DNA from: a virus
Lineage: Duplodnaviria; Heunggongvirae; Uroviricota; Caudoviricetes
IMG/VR virus record: IMGVR_UViG_2563366894_000007
DNA: 2,849 nt
Direction: 5' to 3' (one strand)
Both the position numbers and the translations under genes were made by a program. Below the pieces are notes generated by a model, which saw nothing but the letters and a program-made list of their open reading frames with translations, ran no database searches and was not told the origin of the DNA. Shown one piece after another: positions 1-2,849 of the stretch (positions are counted from its first letter, which is position 1; every line of letters begins with the position of its first letter).

Positions 1-201
1 GCCGCAGCCAGTTCTGCAAGCGCGGCGGCTGCTTCTGCCACTGCATCAGCTAACAGTCAAAAAGCAGCAAAAACCAGTGAAACCAACGCAAAGGTGAGCG
101 AAACAGCGGCTGCGAACTCAGCGAAAGCATCGGCAGCAAGCCAGACGGCAGCTAAAGCAAGCGAAGATGCAGCCAGAGAGTACGCAAGCCAGGCTGCGGA
201 G
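1..201 (+). repeat. Low-complexity GC-rich coding tract (degenerate Ala/Ser-rich peptide repeats) inside the fiber gene
   Basis: Dominated by GCN/AGC/TCN codons. The translation shows reiterated A-A-K-x-S-E-x-N-A / A-x-S-A-K-A-S units. Composition is visibly more GC-rich than the rest of the window. Confidence 0.65.
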
Positions 202-1518
202 CCGTATAAATATGTCTTACAGCCGCTGCCTGATGTGTGGATACCATTTAACGATTCGCTGGATATGATTACGGGCTTTTCGCCGTCATATAAAAAAATT
301 GTTATTGGTGACGATGAAATAACGATGCCTGGCGACAAGATTGTTAAGTTTAAACGTGCATCGAAAGCAACCTATATTAACAAATCTGGTGTGCTGACAG
401 AGGCTGCCATTGACGAGCCACGATTTGAACGTGATGGCCTGCTTATTGAGGGGCAAAGAACTAATCTTCTGCTTAATTCAACAAATCCATCTAAATGGAA
501 TAAGTCAGGCAATCTGGAACTCACAGAAATATCCACGGATTCTTTTAATTTTACTTATGGGAGATTTACTGTAAAAGATACTCTTATTGGTCAGACAAGT
601 GCTATTAATATCGTAACGGTTTCTGGCAGTAAAGGGTTTGATGTCACAGGTGATGAAAAATATGTGACCATTTCATGCCGTGTAAGAAGTGATGTTGAAA
701 ATGTAAGGTGTCGTTTAAGATTTGAACACCATGATGGTTATACTTACACTTTTTTGGGAGATGCTTACCTCAATTTATCAACACTTGTAATTGATAAAGC
801 TGGTACTGCTGCAGACCGTATTATTGCAAAGGCTGTAAAAGATGAGGTTACTGGTTGGATTTTCTATCAGGCTACAATTAATGCACTAGATACAGAGAGC
901 ATGATTGGTGCGATGGTTCAATACGCTCCTGTAAAAGGTTCAGGCACAGCATCTGGAGACTATCTGGATATCGCAACTCCACAAGTGGAAGGTGGATCAA
1001 GTGCTTCGTCATTTATTGTAACTGATATAACTGCAAGCACTCGCGCAAGCGATATGGTGACAGTCCCAATCAAGAATAACCTTTATAATCTTCCTTTTAC
1101 GGTTCTTTGTGAGGTACATAAGAACTGGTATAAAACGCCAAATGCAGCGCCACGTGTTTTTGATACCGGCGGTCATCAAACCGGAGCGGCTATTATTCTT
1201 GGCTTCGGTCGTTCAACAGATTACGACGGATTTCCTTATTGCGATATTGGAGGAGCTAACAGACGGGTAAACGAAAACGCATCGCTTGAAAAAATGGTTA
1301 TGGGGATGCGTGTAAAGTCAGAGCAGTCTACGTGCTCAGTAAGTAACGGGCATATATCCAGCGAAACAAAAACCACATGGTCCTGTATTCAGAACACCGC
1401 AATTATCCGTATTGGAGGCCAGACTACAGCCGGGTTACGTCATTTATTTGGTCATGTCAGGAATTTCAGAATATGGCACAAGGCATTGACTGATGCTCAG
1501 GTGGGGGAGTCAATCTAA
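1..1518 (+). CDS. Tail fiber protein (side-tail-fiber-like), 5'-truncated by the window edge; Ala/Ser-rich N-terminal linker followed by a receptor-binding region
   Basis: Frame 1 is open from nt 1 to TAA at 1516-1518, with no stop and no start codon in the first 31 codons. The GTG at 94 used by the ORF track has AAGG directly abutting it with no spacer, so it is not a credible start and the gene begins upstream of the window. The first ~67 codons are low-complexity Ala/Ser/Thr/Lys (AAKTSETNAKVSETAAANSAKASAASQTAAKASEDAAREYASQAAE), which resembles the collar/linker region of lambda-type side tail fibers as I recall it. The C-terminus ends in a LamG/ConA-like lectin motif. Confidence 0.8.
   Translation, partial: AAASSASAAAASATASANSQKAAKTSETNAKVSETAAANSAKASAASQTAAKASEDAAREYASQAAEPYKYVLQPLPDVWIPFNDSLDMITGFSPSYKKIVIGDDEITMPGDKIVKFKRASKATYINKSGVLTEAAIDEPRFERDGLLIEGQRTNLLLNSTNPSKWNKSGNLELTEISTDSFNFTYGRFTVKDTLIGQTSAINIVTVSGSKGFDVTGDEKYVTISCRVRSDVENVRCRLRFEHHDGYTYTFLGDAYLNLSTLVIDKAGTAADRIIAKAVKDEVTGWIFYQATINALDTESMIGAMVQYAPVKGSGTASGDYLDIATPQVEGGSSASSFIVTDITASTRASDMVTVPIKNNLYNLPFTVLCEVHKNWYKTPNAAPRVFDTGGHQTGAAIILGFGRSTDYDGFPYCDIGGANRRVNENASLEKMVMGMRVKSEQSTCSVSNGHISSETKTTWSCIQNTAIIRIGGQTTAGLRHLFGHVRNFRIWHKALTDAQVGESI
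1432..1503 (+). other. C-terminal LamG/concanavalin-A-like lectin signature of the upstream fiber protein (putative receptor-binding jelly-roll domain; N-terminal extent undetermined)
   Basis: The translation GLRHLFGHVRNFRIWHKALTDAQV matches the characteristic C-terminal strand of Laminin_G_3-type domains (typical form ...DEVRIYNRALSAEEI). This is recognised by eye only. Confidence 0.5.
1500..1509 (+). promoter_or_regulatory. Shine-Dalgarno for the acidic ORF (GGTGGGGGAG), 8 nt upstream of ATG 1518
   Basis: Purine-rich GGGGGAG precedes the ATG. The ATG overlaps the upstream stop (TAATG at 1516-1520), which indicates translational coupling. Confidence 0.55.
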
Positions 1519-1799
1519 TGAAAGATTTAACACTCAAATTTGAAGACAGGGCCGACTTTTCGGCCTTTATGGAGAGTATTGGCTATTATGATGACGAGTC
1601 GATGCAGGATGATATTCTTATCGACGTGATAGGTAACGTGTACAAAGAAACCGGAGAACTGACTGAAGATGGCGAACCGGTATGTGTTAAGGAAGACGGA
1701 TATTTTGTAAACGTGCGCATCATTAATGATTCGCAAATATCGTCATTATTCGATGAATACGTGGTTGCTGTTGAGCATCAACTTCGTGGCTGGATGTGA
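1518..1799 (+). CDS. Small, strongly acidic hypothetical protein (93 aa); function unknown, possibly a fiber assembly/accessory factor
   Basis: ATG start with an upstream SD, 1-nt stop/start overlap with the fiber gene, and a TGA stop at 1797-1799. By my count it has 22 Asp/Glu against 7 Lys/Arg. I see no signal peptide or transmembrane segment and do not recognise a family. Confidence 0.6.
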   Translation: MKDLTLKFEDRADFSAFMESIGYYDDESMQDDILIDVIGNVYKETGELTEDGEPVCVKEDGYFVNVRIINDSQISSLFDEYVVAVEHQLRGWM

Positions 1800-1804
1800 G
1801 GAAG
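1798..1804 (+). promoter_or_regulatory. Shine-Dalgarno GAGGAAG for ATG 1809 (6-nt spacer from the GAGGA core), overlapping the TGA stop of the acidic ORF
   Basis: The sequence reads ggatgTGAGGAAGaaaaATGg. This is the strongest ribosome-binding site in the window. Confidence 0.6.
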
Positions 1805-1808
1805 AAAA

Positions 1809-1952
1809 ATGGCTACATCGACAGTAATTCCTGATGACATCAAAACGCTAAAATCCGACGTTAGCAAATTAAAAAACGATCAAGGAAGCTACGCAACAAA
1901 ATCTTATGTAGACAACAAAACTGAAATCGTTGGTGACTGCTCTGCATTATAG
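1809..1952 (+). CDS. 47-codon ORF with strong SD+ATG, ending at in-frame TAG; most likely the N-terminal segment of the downstream fiber-tip gene rather than an independent gene
   Basis: Translation is MATSTVIPDDIKTLKSDVSKLKNDQGSYATKSYVDNKTEIVGDCSAL, then TAG at 1950-1952. It is in the same frame as the 1965..2849 ORF. The ATKSYVDNK stretch resembles fiber N-terminal segments such as P2 gpH (from memory). Confidence 0.4.
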   Translation: MATSTVIPDDIKTLKSDVSKLKNDQGSYATKSYVDNKTEIVGDCSAL

Positions 1953-1964
1953 GATCAAAAAACA

Positions 1965-2849
1965 TTGCCAACAACTGGAACTATATTCAGCGGTAAGCTC
2001 CGTTTGACACATAAGACGGCAGGAGCGGAGAACGCTTATAGTGACATATATACCAGAAAAAATATTGATGGTACTAAAGATACAATGACGCGCATCATCA
2101 TGCACGACAGCAGAAAAAACATCTGTTGGGACTTTAGTGATCTTTACGGAGGAACTTTAATTTTTCCAGGTGATGACGGATACCTCAAGATGGGTAACTG
2201 CCTCATGTCATACAGTGAGCGGGGAAGTAACGCGCTTATTAAGTTTGATAATACCGACACATTGCAGATCAAATATGCTAATCACGGGTCGACCATGACA
2301 CTAAACACGCAAGGTACGGCGTATTCTGGTGTGTCGACGTTATTATGGGGAAATTCCAGCCGTCCTGTTGTTTATGAAGTCGGTGTTGATGGTGGCGCTT
2401 ATATGTTCTATGCGCAGAAAAATACCGATAACACCTATATGTTAAGCGTTAATGGTGCATGTCATGCCACCGCATTTAACCAGCATTCCGACCGGGATCT
2501 GAAAGACAACATTCAGGTGATCGATAATGCAACCGACCGCATCCGTAAAATGAACGGCTATACATACACGCTTAAAGAAAACGGTATGCCCTATGCTGGT
2601 GTCATTGCACAGGAAGCTCTGGAAGCAATCCCAGAAGTTGTAGGTTCCGCAATGAAATATCAGGACGGTGCGAGCGGATCGGAAGGTGAAGAAGGTGAAC
2701 GTTATTACACAGTAGATTATTCTGGTGTTACTGGCTTGCTTGTTCAGGTAGCCAGAGAGTCAGACGACAGAATAACAGCACTGGAAGAAGAAAACGCAGA
2801 ATTAAGACAAAGATTATCTGTAATTGAGGCGGCGCTTGCGTCTAAATAA
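1965..2849 (+). CDS. Tail-fiber receptor-binding tip protein with C-terminal intramolecular chaperone (Peptidase_S74-like) domain; start uncertain
   Basis: Open frame from the TAG at 1950 to TAA at 2847-2849. The first start is TTG 1965, with AGGA at 1951-1954 about 10 nt upstream; the next in-frame ATGs are at 2085 and 2100. The tip motif LLWGNSSRPVVYEVGVDGGAYMFYAQKNTDNTYMLSVNG resembles the conserved C-terminal tip of P2 gpH-type fibers (from memory). The C-terminus is an intramolecular chaperone domain. Confidence 0.7.
   Translation: MPTTGTIFSGKLRLTHKTAGAENAYSDIYTRKNIDGTKDTMTRIIMHDSRKNICWDFSDLYGGTLIFPGDDGYLKMGNCLMSYSERGSNALIKFDNTDTLQIKYANHGSTMTLNTQGTAYSGVSTLLWGNSSRPVVYEVGVDGGAYMFYAQKNTDNTYMLSVNGACHATAFNQHSDRDLKDNIQVIDNATDRIRKMNGYTYTLKENGMPYAGVIAQEALEAIPEVVGSAMKYQDGASGSEGEEGERYYTVDYSGVTGLLVQVARESDDRITALEEENAELRQRLSVIEAALASK
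2487..2846 (+). other. Intramolecular chaperone / autoproteolytic C-terminal domain (endosialidase-chaperone, Peptidase_S74 type)
   Basis: Hallmark motifs are present in order: HSDRDLKDNI at the cleavage site, NATDRIRKMNGYTY, YAGVIAQEALEAIPEVV, YYTVDYSGVTGLLVQVARE, and a terminal coiled-coil-like ITALEEENAELRQRLSVIEAAL. Confidence 0.75.

What the first reader, a model, noticed from the sequence alone, without database searches (positions are those of the whole stretch)
1798..1967. Fiber-tip gene with a canonical SD+ATG start is split by a single in-frame amber codon
ATG 1809 has the best ribosome-binding site in the window (GAGGAAG, 6-nt spacer). After 47 codons there is a TAG at 1950-1952, and the same frame then continues without a stop for 299 more codons to TAA at 2849. 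The downstream part has no ATG near its 5' end, only TTG 1965, and the 47-aa segment looks like fiber sequence rather than an unrelated small protein. The TAG is embedded in uAGGAu, which could also act as an SD for TTG 1965. Possible explanations are: (a) a recent nonsense mutation, making this a pseudogene or an amber allele; (b) a gene expressed through amber suppression or read-through, giving a 347-aa fiber; (c) termination-reinitiation yielding a 47-aa peptide plus a TTG-initiated tip protein; (d) a sequencing error; (e) TAG read as a sense codon in this genome. Option (e) is the least likely, although it is notable that all three unambiguous stops in the window are TAA or TGA.
Basis: partly seen in the sequence, partly recalled or inferred. 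Interest (0 to 1): 0.6.

Follow-up and report, generated by a model that had tools for sequence, protein, structure and literature searches.

The report
Amber codon from a chimeric assembly
The stop codon that splits this prophage tail-fibre gene is almost certainly not biological: the deposited draft sequence is a base-by-base blend of two similar prophage copies in the same E. coli strain, and TAG arose by mixing one copy's TAT with the other's TGG.

Summary
ATG 1809, an in-frame TAG at 1950-1952 and an open frame to TAA 2849 are all in the window, and every homologue is one uninterrupted 346-aa fibre (phrog_4563, C-terminal Peptidase_S74).

The stop is very probably an assembly artefact. 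The window comes from the draft E. coli KTE202 assembly and starts one base after a 6,395-N scaffold gap. KTE202's flanks are identical to the complete genome Ecol_316 (0 mismatches in 6.8 kb). Ecol_316 and MINF_7C each carry two lambdoid prophages 147 kb apart with this fibre module:
- P1, next to yciE, has TGG at codon 48.
- P2, next to sitABCD, has TAT at codon 48.

All 2,849 window bases equal P1 or P2, with none unexplained. In window 1916-2259 the sequence switches parent 53 times in about 350 nt, and 21 codons are mixed within the codon. TAG is T, plus A from TAT, plus G from TGG.

This blend occurs nowhere else: not in 5,426 complete E. coli genomes, IMG/VR, metagenomes or 15 billion proteins. 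P1-derived bases fall in clusters about 87 nt apart, which suggests a computational origin.

Read-through, reinitiation and TAG-as-sense are not supported. Interest is low, apart from two spurious RefSeq proteins.

The parts
1..1518 (+). 3' part (505 codons) of the side tail fibre gene stf. The contig begins here, one base after a 6,395-N scaffold gap.
   Evidence: Window = L004:8193-11041 of KTE202 scaffold KB733188.1, with the N run at L004:1797-8191. phrog_1419 tail protein, E 2.5e-252.
462..1080 (+). Block that is purely P1-type (yciE-side prophage) inside an otherwise P2-type (sit-side) context.
   Evidence: All informative sites in this block equal P1 and none equals P2. The block is 100% identical to P1 of Ecol_316 and other complete genomes. 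The combination in window 1-1900 is found in no complete genome; the best hit is P1 at 99.4%.
1518..1799 (+). 93-aa conserved ORF of unknown function between stf and the fibre gene. It is P2-type at its 6 informative sites.
   Evidence: phrog_1361, E 2.5e-46. Annotated in all homologous loci. Typing.
1798..1804 (+). Shine-Dalgarno-like GAGGAAG for ATG 1809. It is identical in all close alleles.
1809..2849 (+). Short tail-fibre gene (346 codons in intact relatives), as deposited interrupted by TAG at codon 48.
   Evidence: Translation. Intact homologues are 346 aa. phrog_4563 matches 1-346 of 346.
1916..2259 (+). Mosaic zone where the sequence alternates between P1 and P2 bases at single-site resolution.
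   Evidence: There are 149 informative sites across gene nt 95-451 (window 1903-2259): 94 P2, 55 P1, none unexplained, with 53 switches. The first P1 base is at window 1916. 21 codons are chimeric within the codon. The longest exact match to either parent is 60 nt, median 10. P1 clusters recur with an 87-nt period.
1950..1952 (+). The in-frame TAG, a within-codon chimera of P2 TAT (Tyr) and P1 TGG (Trp).
1965..1967 (+). TTG, the codon for Leu53 of the fibre (TTG in the A and B alleles, TTA in C). It is not a start codon.
2085..2087 (+). Internal ATG (Met93) that RefSeq uses as the start of the 254-aa protein WP_024194463.1 at this locus.
   Evidence: P0018 is 254 aa, 100% identical, from the same 3.56-Mb scaffold.
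2487..2642 (+). Peptidase_S74 intramolecular-chaperone domain (residues 227-278). The window, P1 and P2 are identical here.
   Evidence: Pfam PF13884, E 6.3e-14, residues 227-278. No informative sites in this range.

Best explanation
The TAG is an artefact of the draft assembly of E. coli KTE202. The strain's lineage carries two lambdoid prophages with paralogous stf / 93-aa / 346-aa fibre / 97-aa modules:
- P1 lies next to yciE/yciF, carries the B-type fibre allele and has TGG at codon 48.
- P2 lies next to sitABCD, carries the A-type fibre allele and has TAT at codon 48.

The modules share long identical stretches that flank divergent cassettes. In the short-read draft, the contig placed at the P2 locus was built from reads of both copies. 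The result is a clean P1 block in stf and, in the fibre's variable region, a per-column blend of P1 and P2 bases. That blending produced 21 codons belonging to neither parent, one of which is TAG.

Shown: the composition of the sequence, the existence of both parents in clonal relatives, and the uniqueness of the blend.

Inferred: that KTE202 itself has both prophages intact, and that the blend arose in a consensus, patching or polishing step. The exact step is not identified. In the real genome the gene is most probably an intact 346-aa A-type fibre.
For: 1. Source. The window is from draft assembly GCA_000352965.1 (E. coli KTE202, loci A15E_02067/02068). It starts one base after a 6,395-N gap inside stf, where the P2 structure predicts only about 739 missing nt.
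2. Clonality. KTE202's flanks are identical to complete genome Ecol_316: 0 mismatches in 1,796 nt upstream and 5,000 nt downstream, all P2-type.
3. Both parents exist. Ecol_316 and MINF_7C each carry P1 and P2 about 147 kb apart, with both fibre genes intact.
4. Every base is explained. Of 2,849 window bases, 2,423 are shared by both parents, 297 are P1-only, 129 are P2-only and 0 are unexplained. Both complete genomes give the same result.
5. Density of switching. The mosaic zone has 53 parent switches across 149 informative sites in about 350 nt, against 69 +/- 5.7 expected for a fully random order. The choice of parent is blind to codon position and to base identity.
6. Chimeric codons. 21 codons are chimeric within the codon and 8 encode a residue found in neither parent. 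TAG is T + A (from TAT) + G (from TGG). Simulated per-site blends carry at least one stop in 30% of cases.
7. Not an ancestral intermediate. At informative sites the window agrees with C-type outgroups only 47-54% of the time.
8. Uniqueness. The zone is at most 87.4% identical to anything in 5,426 complete E. coli genomes. Scans of GTDB, IMG/VR and metagenomes found no exact match. Its protein cluster has 2 members, both from this scaffold.
9. Natural alleles are clean. 51 of 64 full-length B-type genes from other collections match P1 at all 149 zone sites, and none is a fine mosaic.
10. Regular spacing. P1-derived bases fall in clusters with an 87-nt period (0 of 3,000 permutations reach the observed power) and there is no sequence repeat of that period.
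Against: - No reads were available, so the artefact is inferred, not observed.
- The mosaic contains many k-mers absent from both parents (longest exact match 60 nt). It therefore cannot be a simple de Bruijn path switch and needs a per-column consensus, patching or polishing step that I could not identify.
- I could not confirm the assembler. Illumina with ALLPATHS-LG is only my recollection. One search shows only that ALLPATHS-LG emits ambiguity lists that are later flattened.
- The stf cassette, which is equally divergent, is a clean P1 block rather than a blend, so two different failure modes would be needed.
- I could not check that KTE202's own assembly contains P1.
- Gene conversion from P1 into P2 would also leave every base explained by P1 or P2.
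Confidence: 0.88

Rival explanations
1. The mosaic is real. Fine-scale gene conversion between the two resident prophage fibre genes (P1 donor, P2 recipient) created a private hybrid allele in KTE202. The amber is a genuine by-product that inactivates a dispensable accessory fibre, making it a pseudogene.
For: Gene conversion would also leave every base explained by P1 or P2 and the flanks unchanged. Block-wise cassette exchange is common in this gene family. The gene tolerates nonsense mutations or disruption elsewhere: the isolated phage PhiR47_1 has a private GAG->TAG at codon 295, and other genomes have IS insertions in the gene.
Against: 53 switches in about 350 nt between sequences about 39% divergent, with alternation inside 21 codons, matches no recombination or repair process known in E. 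coli (my own knowledge: MutHLS repair is long-patch, and unrepaired heteroduplex segregates into pure parental strands). No other fine mosaic appears among 64 natural B-type genes or 5,426 complete genomes. The 87-nt periodicity has no sequence basis. The locus abuts a mis-sized scaffold gap.
Confidence: 0.07
2. The amber is functional and decoded by a suppressor tRNA or by programmed read-through, giving a full-length 347-aa fibre.
For: The frame is open on both sides and the full-length product would be collinear with homologues.
Against: No homologue has a stop at this codon; they have TAT, TGG or AAA. No tRNA gene lies within 20 kb. The allele is unique to one draft assembly. 7 other codons of the same stretch also encode residues found in neither parent, which points to a scrambled rather than a selected sequence.
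Confidence: 0.01
3. Termination-reinitiation: a 47-aa peptide plus a TTG-initiated 294-aa tip protein are made as two products.
For: uAGGAu lies 10 nt upstream of TTG 1965. Gene callers did call the two ORFs.
Against: No homologue has a two-gene layout. The homologous clusters of 254-aa proteins that I traced are contig-end truncations or IS insertions, and the 45-48-aa ones (mostly flagged partial, from short contigs) look the same but were not traced. TTG 1965 is the Leu53 codon. The N-terminal 47 residues are part of the conserved coiled-coil-like head of phrog_4563.
Confidence: 0.01
4. TAG is read as a sense codon in this genome.
For: The three other stops in the window are TAA or TGA.
Against: The host is E. 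coli with the standard code. Three stops are too few to be informative. Clonal relatives have TAT and TGG at this codon.
Confidence: 0.003

Closest known systems
Collapsed or chimeric repeat consensus in short-read draft assemblies (paralogous prophage tail-fibre modules)
   Same: Two near-identical repeat copies lie in one genome. The contig sits at a scaffold gap. Every base is attributable to one copy or the other. The hybrid is unique to one draft assembly.
   Different: The blend is at single-base resolution with an 87-nt periodicity, not a simple path switch at a shared repeat. The responsible pipeline step is not identified.
phrog_4563 / Pfam Peptidase_S74 short tail fibres of lambdoid prophages and siphoviruses (Tritos, PhiR63_1, JenP1), with a C-terminal intramolecular chaperone as in endosialidase-type fibres
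   Same: Same length, same gene order (stf / 93 aa / fibre / 97 aa), and the S74 domain at residues 227-278.
   Different: The deposited sequence has a stop at codon 48 and 7 other residues found in neither parental allele. The only hit among solved structures is weak: 6f45 long tail fibre distal subunit, E 0.0012.
Inactivated side-tail-fibre genes in otherwise viable lambdoid phages (the lambda PaPa stf frameshift, from my own knowledge; the PhiR47_1 amber found here)
   Same: An accessory fibre gene carries a disabling point mutation.
   Different: Those are single private changes in an otherwise clean allele. Here the stop sits inside a 350-nt scrambled stretch.
Segmental gene-conversion systems for antigenic variation (Borrelia vlsE, Neisseria pilE/pilS; my own knowledge)
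   Same: They give fine-scale mosaics of resident donor cassettes. This is what the mosaic would resemble if it were real.
   Different: No such machinery is known for E. coli prophage fibres. There is only one donor, about 39% divergence, and switching within codons. No other mosaics are seen in thousands of genomes.

Membership tests
phrog_4563 / Peptidase_S74 tail fibre | Full-length collinear similarity to the 346-aa family | tested here: met
   Window 1809-2849 aligns without gaps to 346-aa homologues. The intact P2 copy matches the profile over 1-346 of 346, E 7e-209.
phrog_4563 / Peptidase_S74 tail fibre | C-terminal S74 intramolecular chaperone domain | tested here: met
   PF13884, E 6.3e-14, residues 227-278. 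This region of the window is identical to both parents.
phrog_4563 / Peptidase_S74 tail fibre | Uninterrupted reading frame | tested here: not met
   TAG at codon 48 in the deposited sequence. It is judged to be an artefact.
Chimeric or collapsed-repeat assembly artefact | Both parental copies are present in the same genome | tested here: inconclusive
   Both are present in two complete genomes whose flanks are 100% identical to KTE202. KTE202's own P1 locus could not be fetched.
Chimeric or collapsed-repeat assembly artefact | Every base is explained by one parent or the other, with no private substitutions | tested here: met
   0 unexplained bases of 2,849, with 426 informative.
Chimeric or collapsed-repeat assembly artefact | The switch pattern is incompatible with natural recombination or descent | tested here: met
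   53 switches over 149 sites, 21 intra-codon chimeras, 47-54% agreement with the outgroup, and an 87-nt periodicity.
Chimeric or collapsed-repeat assembly artefact | Draft short-read assembly with signs of local assembly trouble | tested here: met
   The contig starts after a 6,395-N gap where about 739 nt are expected. The assembler and read type are not verified.
Chimeric or collapsed-repeat assembly artefact | Raw reads lack the chimeric haplotype | not testable with these tools
   No access to reads.
Programmed amber read-through / suppression | The stop codon is conserved at the same position in homologues | tested here: not met
   Homologues have TAT, TGG or AAA. 76 of 76 B-type loci have TGG.
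Programmed amber read-through / suppression | A cognate suppressor tRNA is present | tested here: inconclusive
   No tRNA gene in the 20 kb around the locus or in P1/P2.
Two-gene layout with reinitiation | Homologues have a separate small upstream gene and a downstream gene starting near nt 1965 | tested here: not met
   The homologues are single ORFs. The truncated entries I traced are contig-end or IS artefacts; the shortest ones were not traced.

The most novel reading that the evidence does not exclude
The mosaic is genuine. An unrecognised fine-scale, segmental gene-conversion process between two resident prophage fibre genes would be diversifying the receptor-binding region at near single-nucleotide resolution, analogous to vlsE or pilE antigenic variation, with the amber as collateral damage.
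Probability: 0.04. Interest if true: 0.85.

Novelty: not a real feature. Interest (0 to 1): 0.07.

Why it matters
As biology it does not matter. The real gene is most probably an ordinary, intact accessory tail fibre of a lambdoid prophage.

It matters modestly for data hygiene.
- Two protein records exist only because of this chimeric contig: the 47-aa WP_001615200.1 / ELH56106.1, and the 294/254-aa ELH56107.1 / WP_024194463.1.
- The case shows that an in-frame stop in a draft genome should first be tested against paralogous copies in clonal complete genomes.
- A three-way 'which parent' tally identifies this kind of artefact without any reads.

If the mosaic were nevertheless real, it would be a new diversification mechanism for phage receptor-binding proteins.

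Tried and rejected
1. Recurrent stop. Several homologue clusters are 254 aa or 45-48 aa, which suggested the stop might recur in other genomes. The 254-aa ones proved to be contig-end truncations (P0026, P0028) or an IS (DDE_Tnp_1) insertion (P0027). Among the 45-48-aa cluster members, several are flagged partial and some sit on very short contigs. A pattern scan instead showed TGG in 76 of 76 B-type loci.
2. Ancestral amber repaired three ways. Y, W and K are all classic amber revertants. This was rejected because the C-type Lys codon is AAA, not AAG, and the window follows the outgroup at only 47-54% of informative sites.
3. Independent third allele. Rejected because there are no private substitutions.
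4. Deterministic flattening rule, such as always taking the alphabetically first base. No base preference was found.
5. Internal 87-nt repeats as the cause of the periodicity. None were found.
6. Literature on the KTE202 assembly method. No paper holds 'KTE202', and the ALLPATHS-LG paper is not in the library. Only the general statement that ALLPATHS-LG records ambiguities in eFASTA was retrieved.
7. Exact-pattern scans for the window's allele in GTDB genomes and IMG/VR gave 0 hits.
Full report
**Observation**

The window holds four things in order:
- the 3' 1,518 nt of a side tail fibre gene (stf);
- a 93-aa ORF at 1518-1799;
- behind GAGGAAG (1798-1804), an ATG at 1809 followed by 47 codons and TAG at 1950-1952;
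- 298 more sense codons in the same frame, ending at TAA 2847-2849.

TTG 1965 opens a 294-aa ORF, and the first in-frame ATG after the stop is at 2085.

**One gene, not two**

Close relatives carry a single ORF of exactly 1,041 nt / 346 aa at the same place. They share the gene order J / lom / stf / 93 aa / fibre / 97 aa. These relatives include E. coli prophages and phages Tritos, PhiR63_1, HannyBb and 2G7b. The fibre itself recurs behind a 92-aa ORF in the lytic Nonagvirus JenP1.

A protein search returned 190 homologues, most of them 346 aa and collinear across the stop. The intact protein is phrog_4563 (1-346 of 346) with a Pfam Peptidase_S74 intramolecular-chaperone domain at residues 227-278.

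At codon 48 the three natural allele types have:
- TAT (Tyr) in type A;
- TGG (Trp) in type B;
- AAA (Lys) in type C.

Clusters of truncated homologues looked at first like a recurrent stop. The 254-aa ones turned out to be contig ends or an IS insertion. The 45-48-aa ones are mostly flagged partial, or sit on very short contigs, and could not be looked up directly. All 76 B-type loci recovered from GTDB genomes, IMG/VR and metagenomes have TGG.

**Where the window comes from**

Exact look-up of the 47-aa and 294-aa products finds one scaffold only: KB733188.1 of draft assembly GCA_000352965.1, E. coli KTE202 (loci A15E_02067/02068). The window starts one base after a 6,395-N scaffold gap inside stf. 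The prophage lies next to sitDCBA, uspF, ompN and a large PFOR-type oxidoreductase gene.

**The key result**

A three-way comparison with an A allele (E. coli 13TMH22) and a B allele (Tritos) showed no site in the fibre gene where the window differs from both.

I then looked for the window's stf cassette (462-1080) in complete genomes. It matches at 100% in genomes that also carry the A-type fibre about 147 kb away. Ecol_316 (NZ_CP018957.1) has two lambdoid prophages with this module:
- P1, next to yciE/yciF, has the B-type fibre (TGG) and the window's stf cassette.
- P2, next to sitABCD, has the A-type fibre (TAT).

KTE202's flanks are identical to P2 of Ecol_316, with 0 mismatches in 1,796 nt upstream of the gap and 5,000 nt downstream. 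The strains are therefore clonal.

Of the 2,849 window bases:
- 2,423 are shared by P1 and P2;
- 297 equal P1 only;
- 129 equal P2 only;
- none is unexplained.

A second complete genome, MINF_7C, has identical P1 and P2 and gives the same tally.

The layout along the window is:

| Window range | Parent |
|---|---|
| 1-461 | shared or P2 |
| 462-1080 | pure P1 |
| 1543-1849 | P2 |
| 1916-2259 | fine mosaic |
| 2260-2849 | P2 |

**Anatomy of the mosaic**

- The zone has 149 informative sites: 94 P2 and 55 P1. There are 53 parent switches (55 runs), against 69 +/- 5.7 for a fully random order.
- The choice of parent ignores codon position and base identity.
- 21 codons are mixed within the codon, and 8 encode a residue found in neither parent. 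One of these is codon 48, where T + A (from P2 TAT) + G (from P1 TGG) gives TAG.
- In simulated per-site blends at the observed mixing ratio, 30% carry at least one in-frame stop, so a stop is an unsurprising by-product.
- The window is not an ancestral intermediate. At sites where a C-type outgroup matches one parent, the window follows the outgroup only 47-54% of the time.
- The blend is unique. It is at most 87.4% identical to anything in 5,426 complete E. coli genomes. Pattern scans found no match. Its protein cluster has two members, both from this scaffold.
- Even window 1-1900 has no exact counterpart. The best hit is P1 at 99.4%, and the 11 mismatches are the P2-specific sites.
- Natural alleles are clean. 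51 of 64 full-length B-type genes from other collections match P1 at all 149 zone sites, and none is a fine mosaic.

**Interpretation**

A sequence that differs from a clonal relative only inside a duplicated module, and always toward the paralogue's base, has two possible origins:
- reads of both copies merged in silico;
- gene conversion from P1 into P2.

53 switches in about 350 nt between sequences about 39% divergent, with alternation inside codons, fit no recombination or repair process I know of in E. coli (my own knowledge). The contig edge at a mis-sized gap (6,395 N against about 739 nt expected) shows the assembler struggled here.

P1-derived bases also fall in five clusters starting at 1916, 2000, 2091, 2171 and 2255. 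The periodogram peaks at 87 nt, and 0 of 3,000 permutations reach that power. Neither parent has a repeat of that period. This regularity points to a fixed-length computational unit.

I therefore conclude, at about 0.88 confidence, that the TAG is an assembly or consensus chimera and that the real P2 gene is intact with TAT.

**Caveats**

- I had no reads.
- The zone contains k-mers absent from both parents (longest exact match 60 nt). A simple graph path switch cannot explain it, so a per-column consensus, patching or polishing step is needed, and I could not identify it.
- The assembler is not verified. Illumina with ALLPATHS-LG is my recollection only. One search shows only that ALLPATHS-LG outputs ambiguity lists that get flattened.
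- The stf cassette is a clean block rather than a blend.

**Rivals**

- A real conversion mosaic with a genuine nonsense codon: about 0.07. It cannot be excluded without reads. The gene is evidently dispensable, since the isolated phage PhiR47_1 has a private GAG->TAG at codon 295 and other genomes have IS insertions.
- Suppression or read-through, reinitiation at TTG 1965, and TAG as a sense codon: each 0.01 or less. No homologue has a stop or a two-gene layout. TTG is the Leu53 codon. No tRNA gene lies within 20 kb. The host is E. coli.

**Comparison with known things**

The underlying gene is an ordinary member of the S74-chaperone tail-fibre family. The phenomenon belongs with chimeric or collapsed repeat assemblies, although its single-base granularity is unusual. 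If it were real, it would resemble segmental gene-conversion systems such as vlsE, and that would be new for phage fibres.

**Verdict**

This is not a real feature. Interest is low (0.07). The decisive test is a k-mer count on the KTE202 reads, or a locus-specific PCR.

Noticed in passing
L090:3312-3314 (phage PhiR47_1, PV340566.1, fibre codon 295): The isolated phage PhiR47_1 (host given in the record: ECOR13) carries a private in-frame amber (GAG->TAG) inside the S74 chaperone region of the same fibre gene, which is annotated as two CDSs. Six IMG/VR loci and JenP1 with the same flanks all have GAG. This suggests the fibre is dispensable on that host, or that this is another sequence error.
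   Followed up: partly
window 1916-2259: P1-derived bases occur in five clusters starting at 1916, 2000, 2091, 2171 and 2255. The period is about 87 nt, and 0 of 3,000 permutations reach the observed power. No sequence repeat of that period is present. The cause is unexplained, presumably a fixed-length unit of the assembly pipeline.
   Followed up: partly
L004:1797-8191 (immediately upstream of window base 1): The scaffold gap is 6,395 N inside stf, whereas the P2 structure of clonal complete genomes predicts only about 739 missing nt. The gap size or the scaffolding is wrong here.
   Followed up: partly
window 462-1080 and window 1-1900: The stf cassette is a clean P1-type block inside P2 context. 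The P2/P1/P2 combination of window 1-1900 exists in none of 5,426 complete E. coli genomes (the best hit is P1 at 99.4%, and the 11 mismatches are the P2-specific sites). The stf part of the contig is therefore also a hybrid.
   Followed up: yes
window 1809-1952 and 1965/2085-2849: The protein records ELH56106.1 / WP_001615200.1 (47 aa), ELH56107.1 (294 aa) and WP_024194463.1 (254 aa, from internal ATG 2085) exist only for this scaffold. They are probably artefactual entries.
   Followed up: yes
L007:1487-2695, L008:1487-2695, L009:1308-2516: In other E. coli genomes an IS (DDE_Tnp_1 transposase, 402 aa) is inserted in the 5' part of the homologous fibre gene, leaving a 254-aa annotated remnant. 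This is genuine disruption of the gene in nature.
   Followed up: partly
L095:3701-6079; L103:1701-4079: In the complete genomes Ecol_316 and MINF_7C, the stf gene of prophage P1 is annotated as a pseudogene in two pieces with about 1 kb between them. P1 may be a decaying prophage even though its short fibre gene is intact.
   Followed up: no
L013 (JANCAF010000137.1, 545 nt): A 545-nt contig in the assembly of the actinomycete Actinacidiphila cocklensis DSM 42063 contains the exact 35-mer of the E. coli prophage B-type fibre. This is most likely contamination of that assembly.
   Followed up: no
L088:30-3481 (phage JenP1) and one search hits: The fibre gene and its small upstream ORF are shared between temperate lambdoid prophages and lytic siphoviruses (Nonagvirus JenP1), and the window's stf C-terminal region also matches genomes of about 108-110 kb. 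The cassettes are exchanged block-wise (types A, B and C, with different C-terminal tails).
   Followed up: partly
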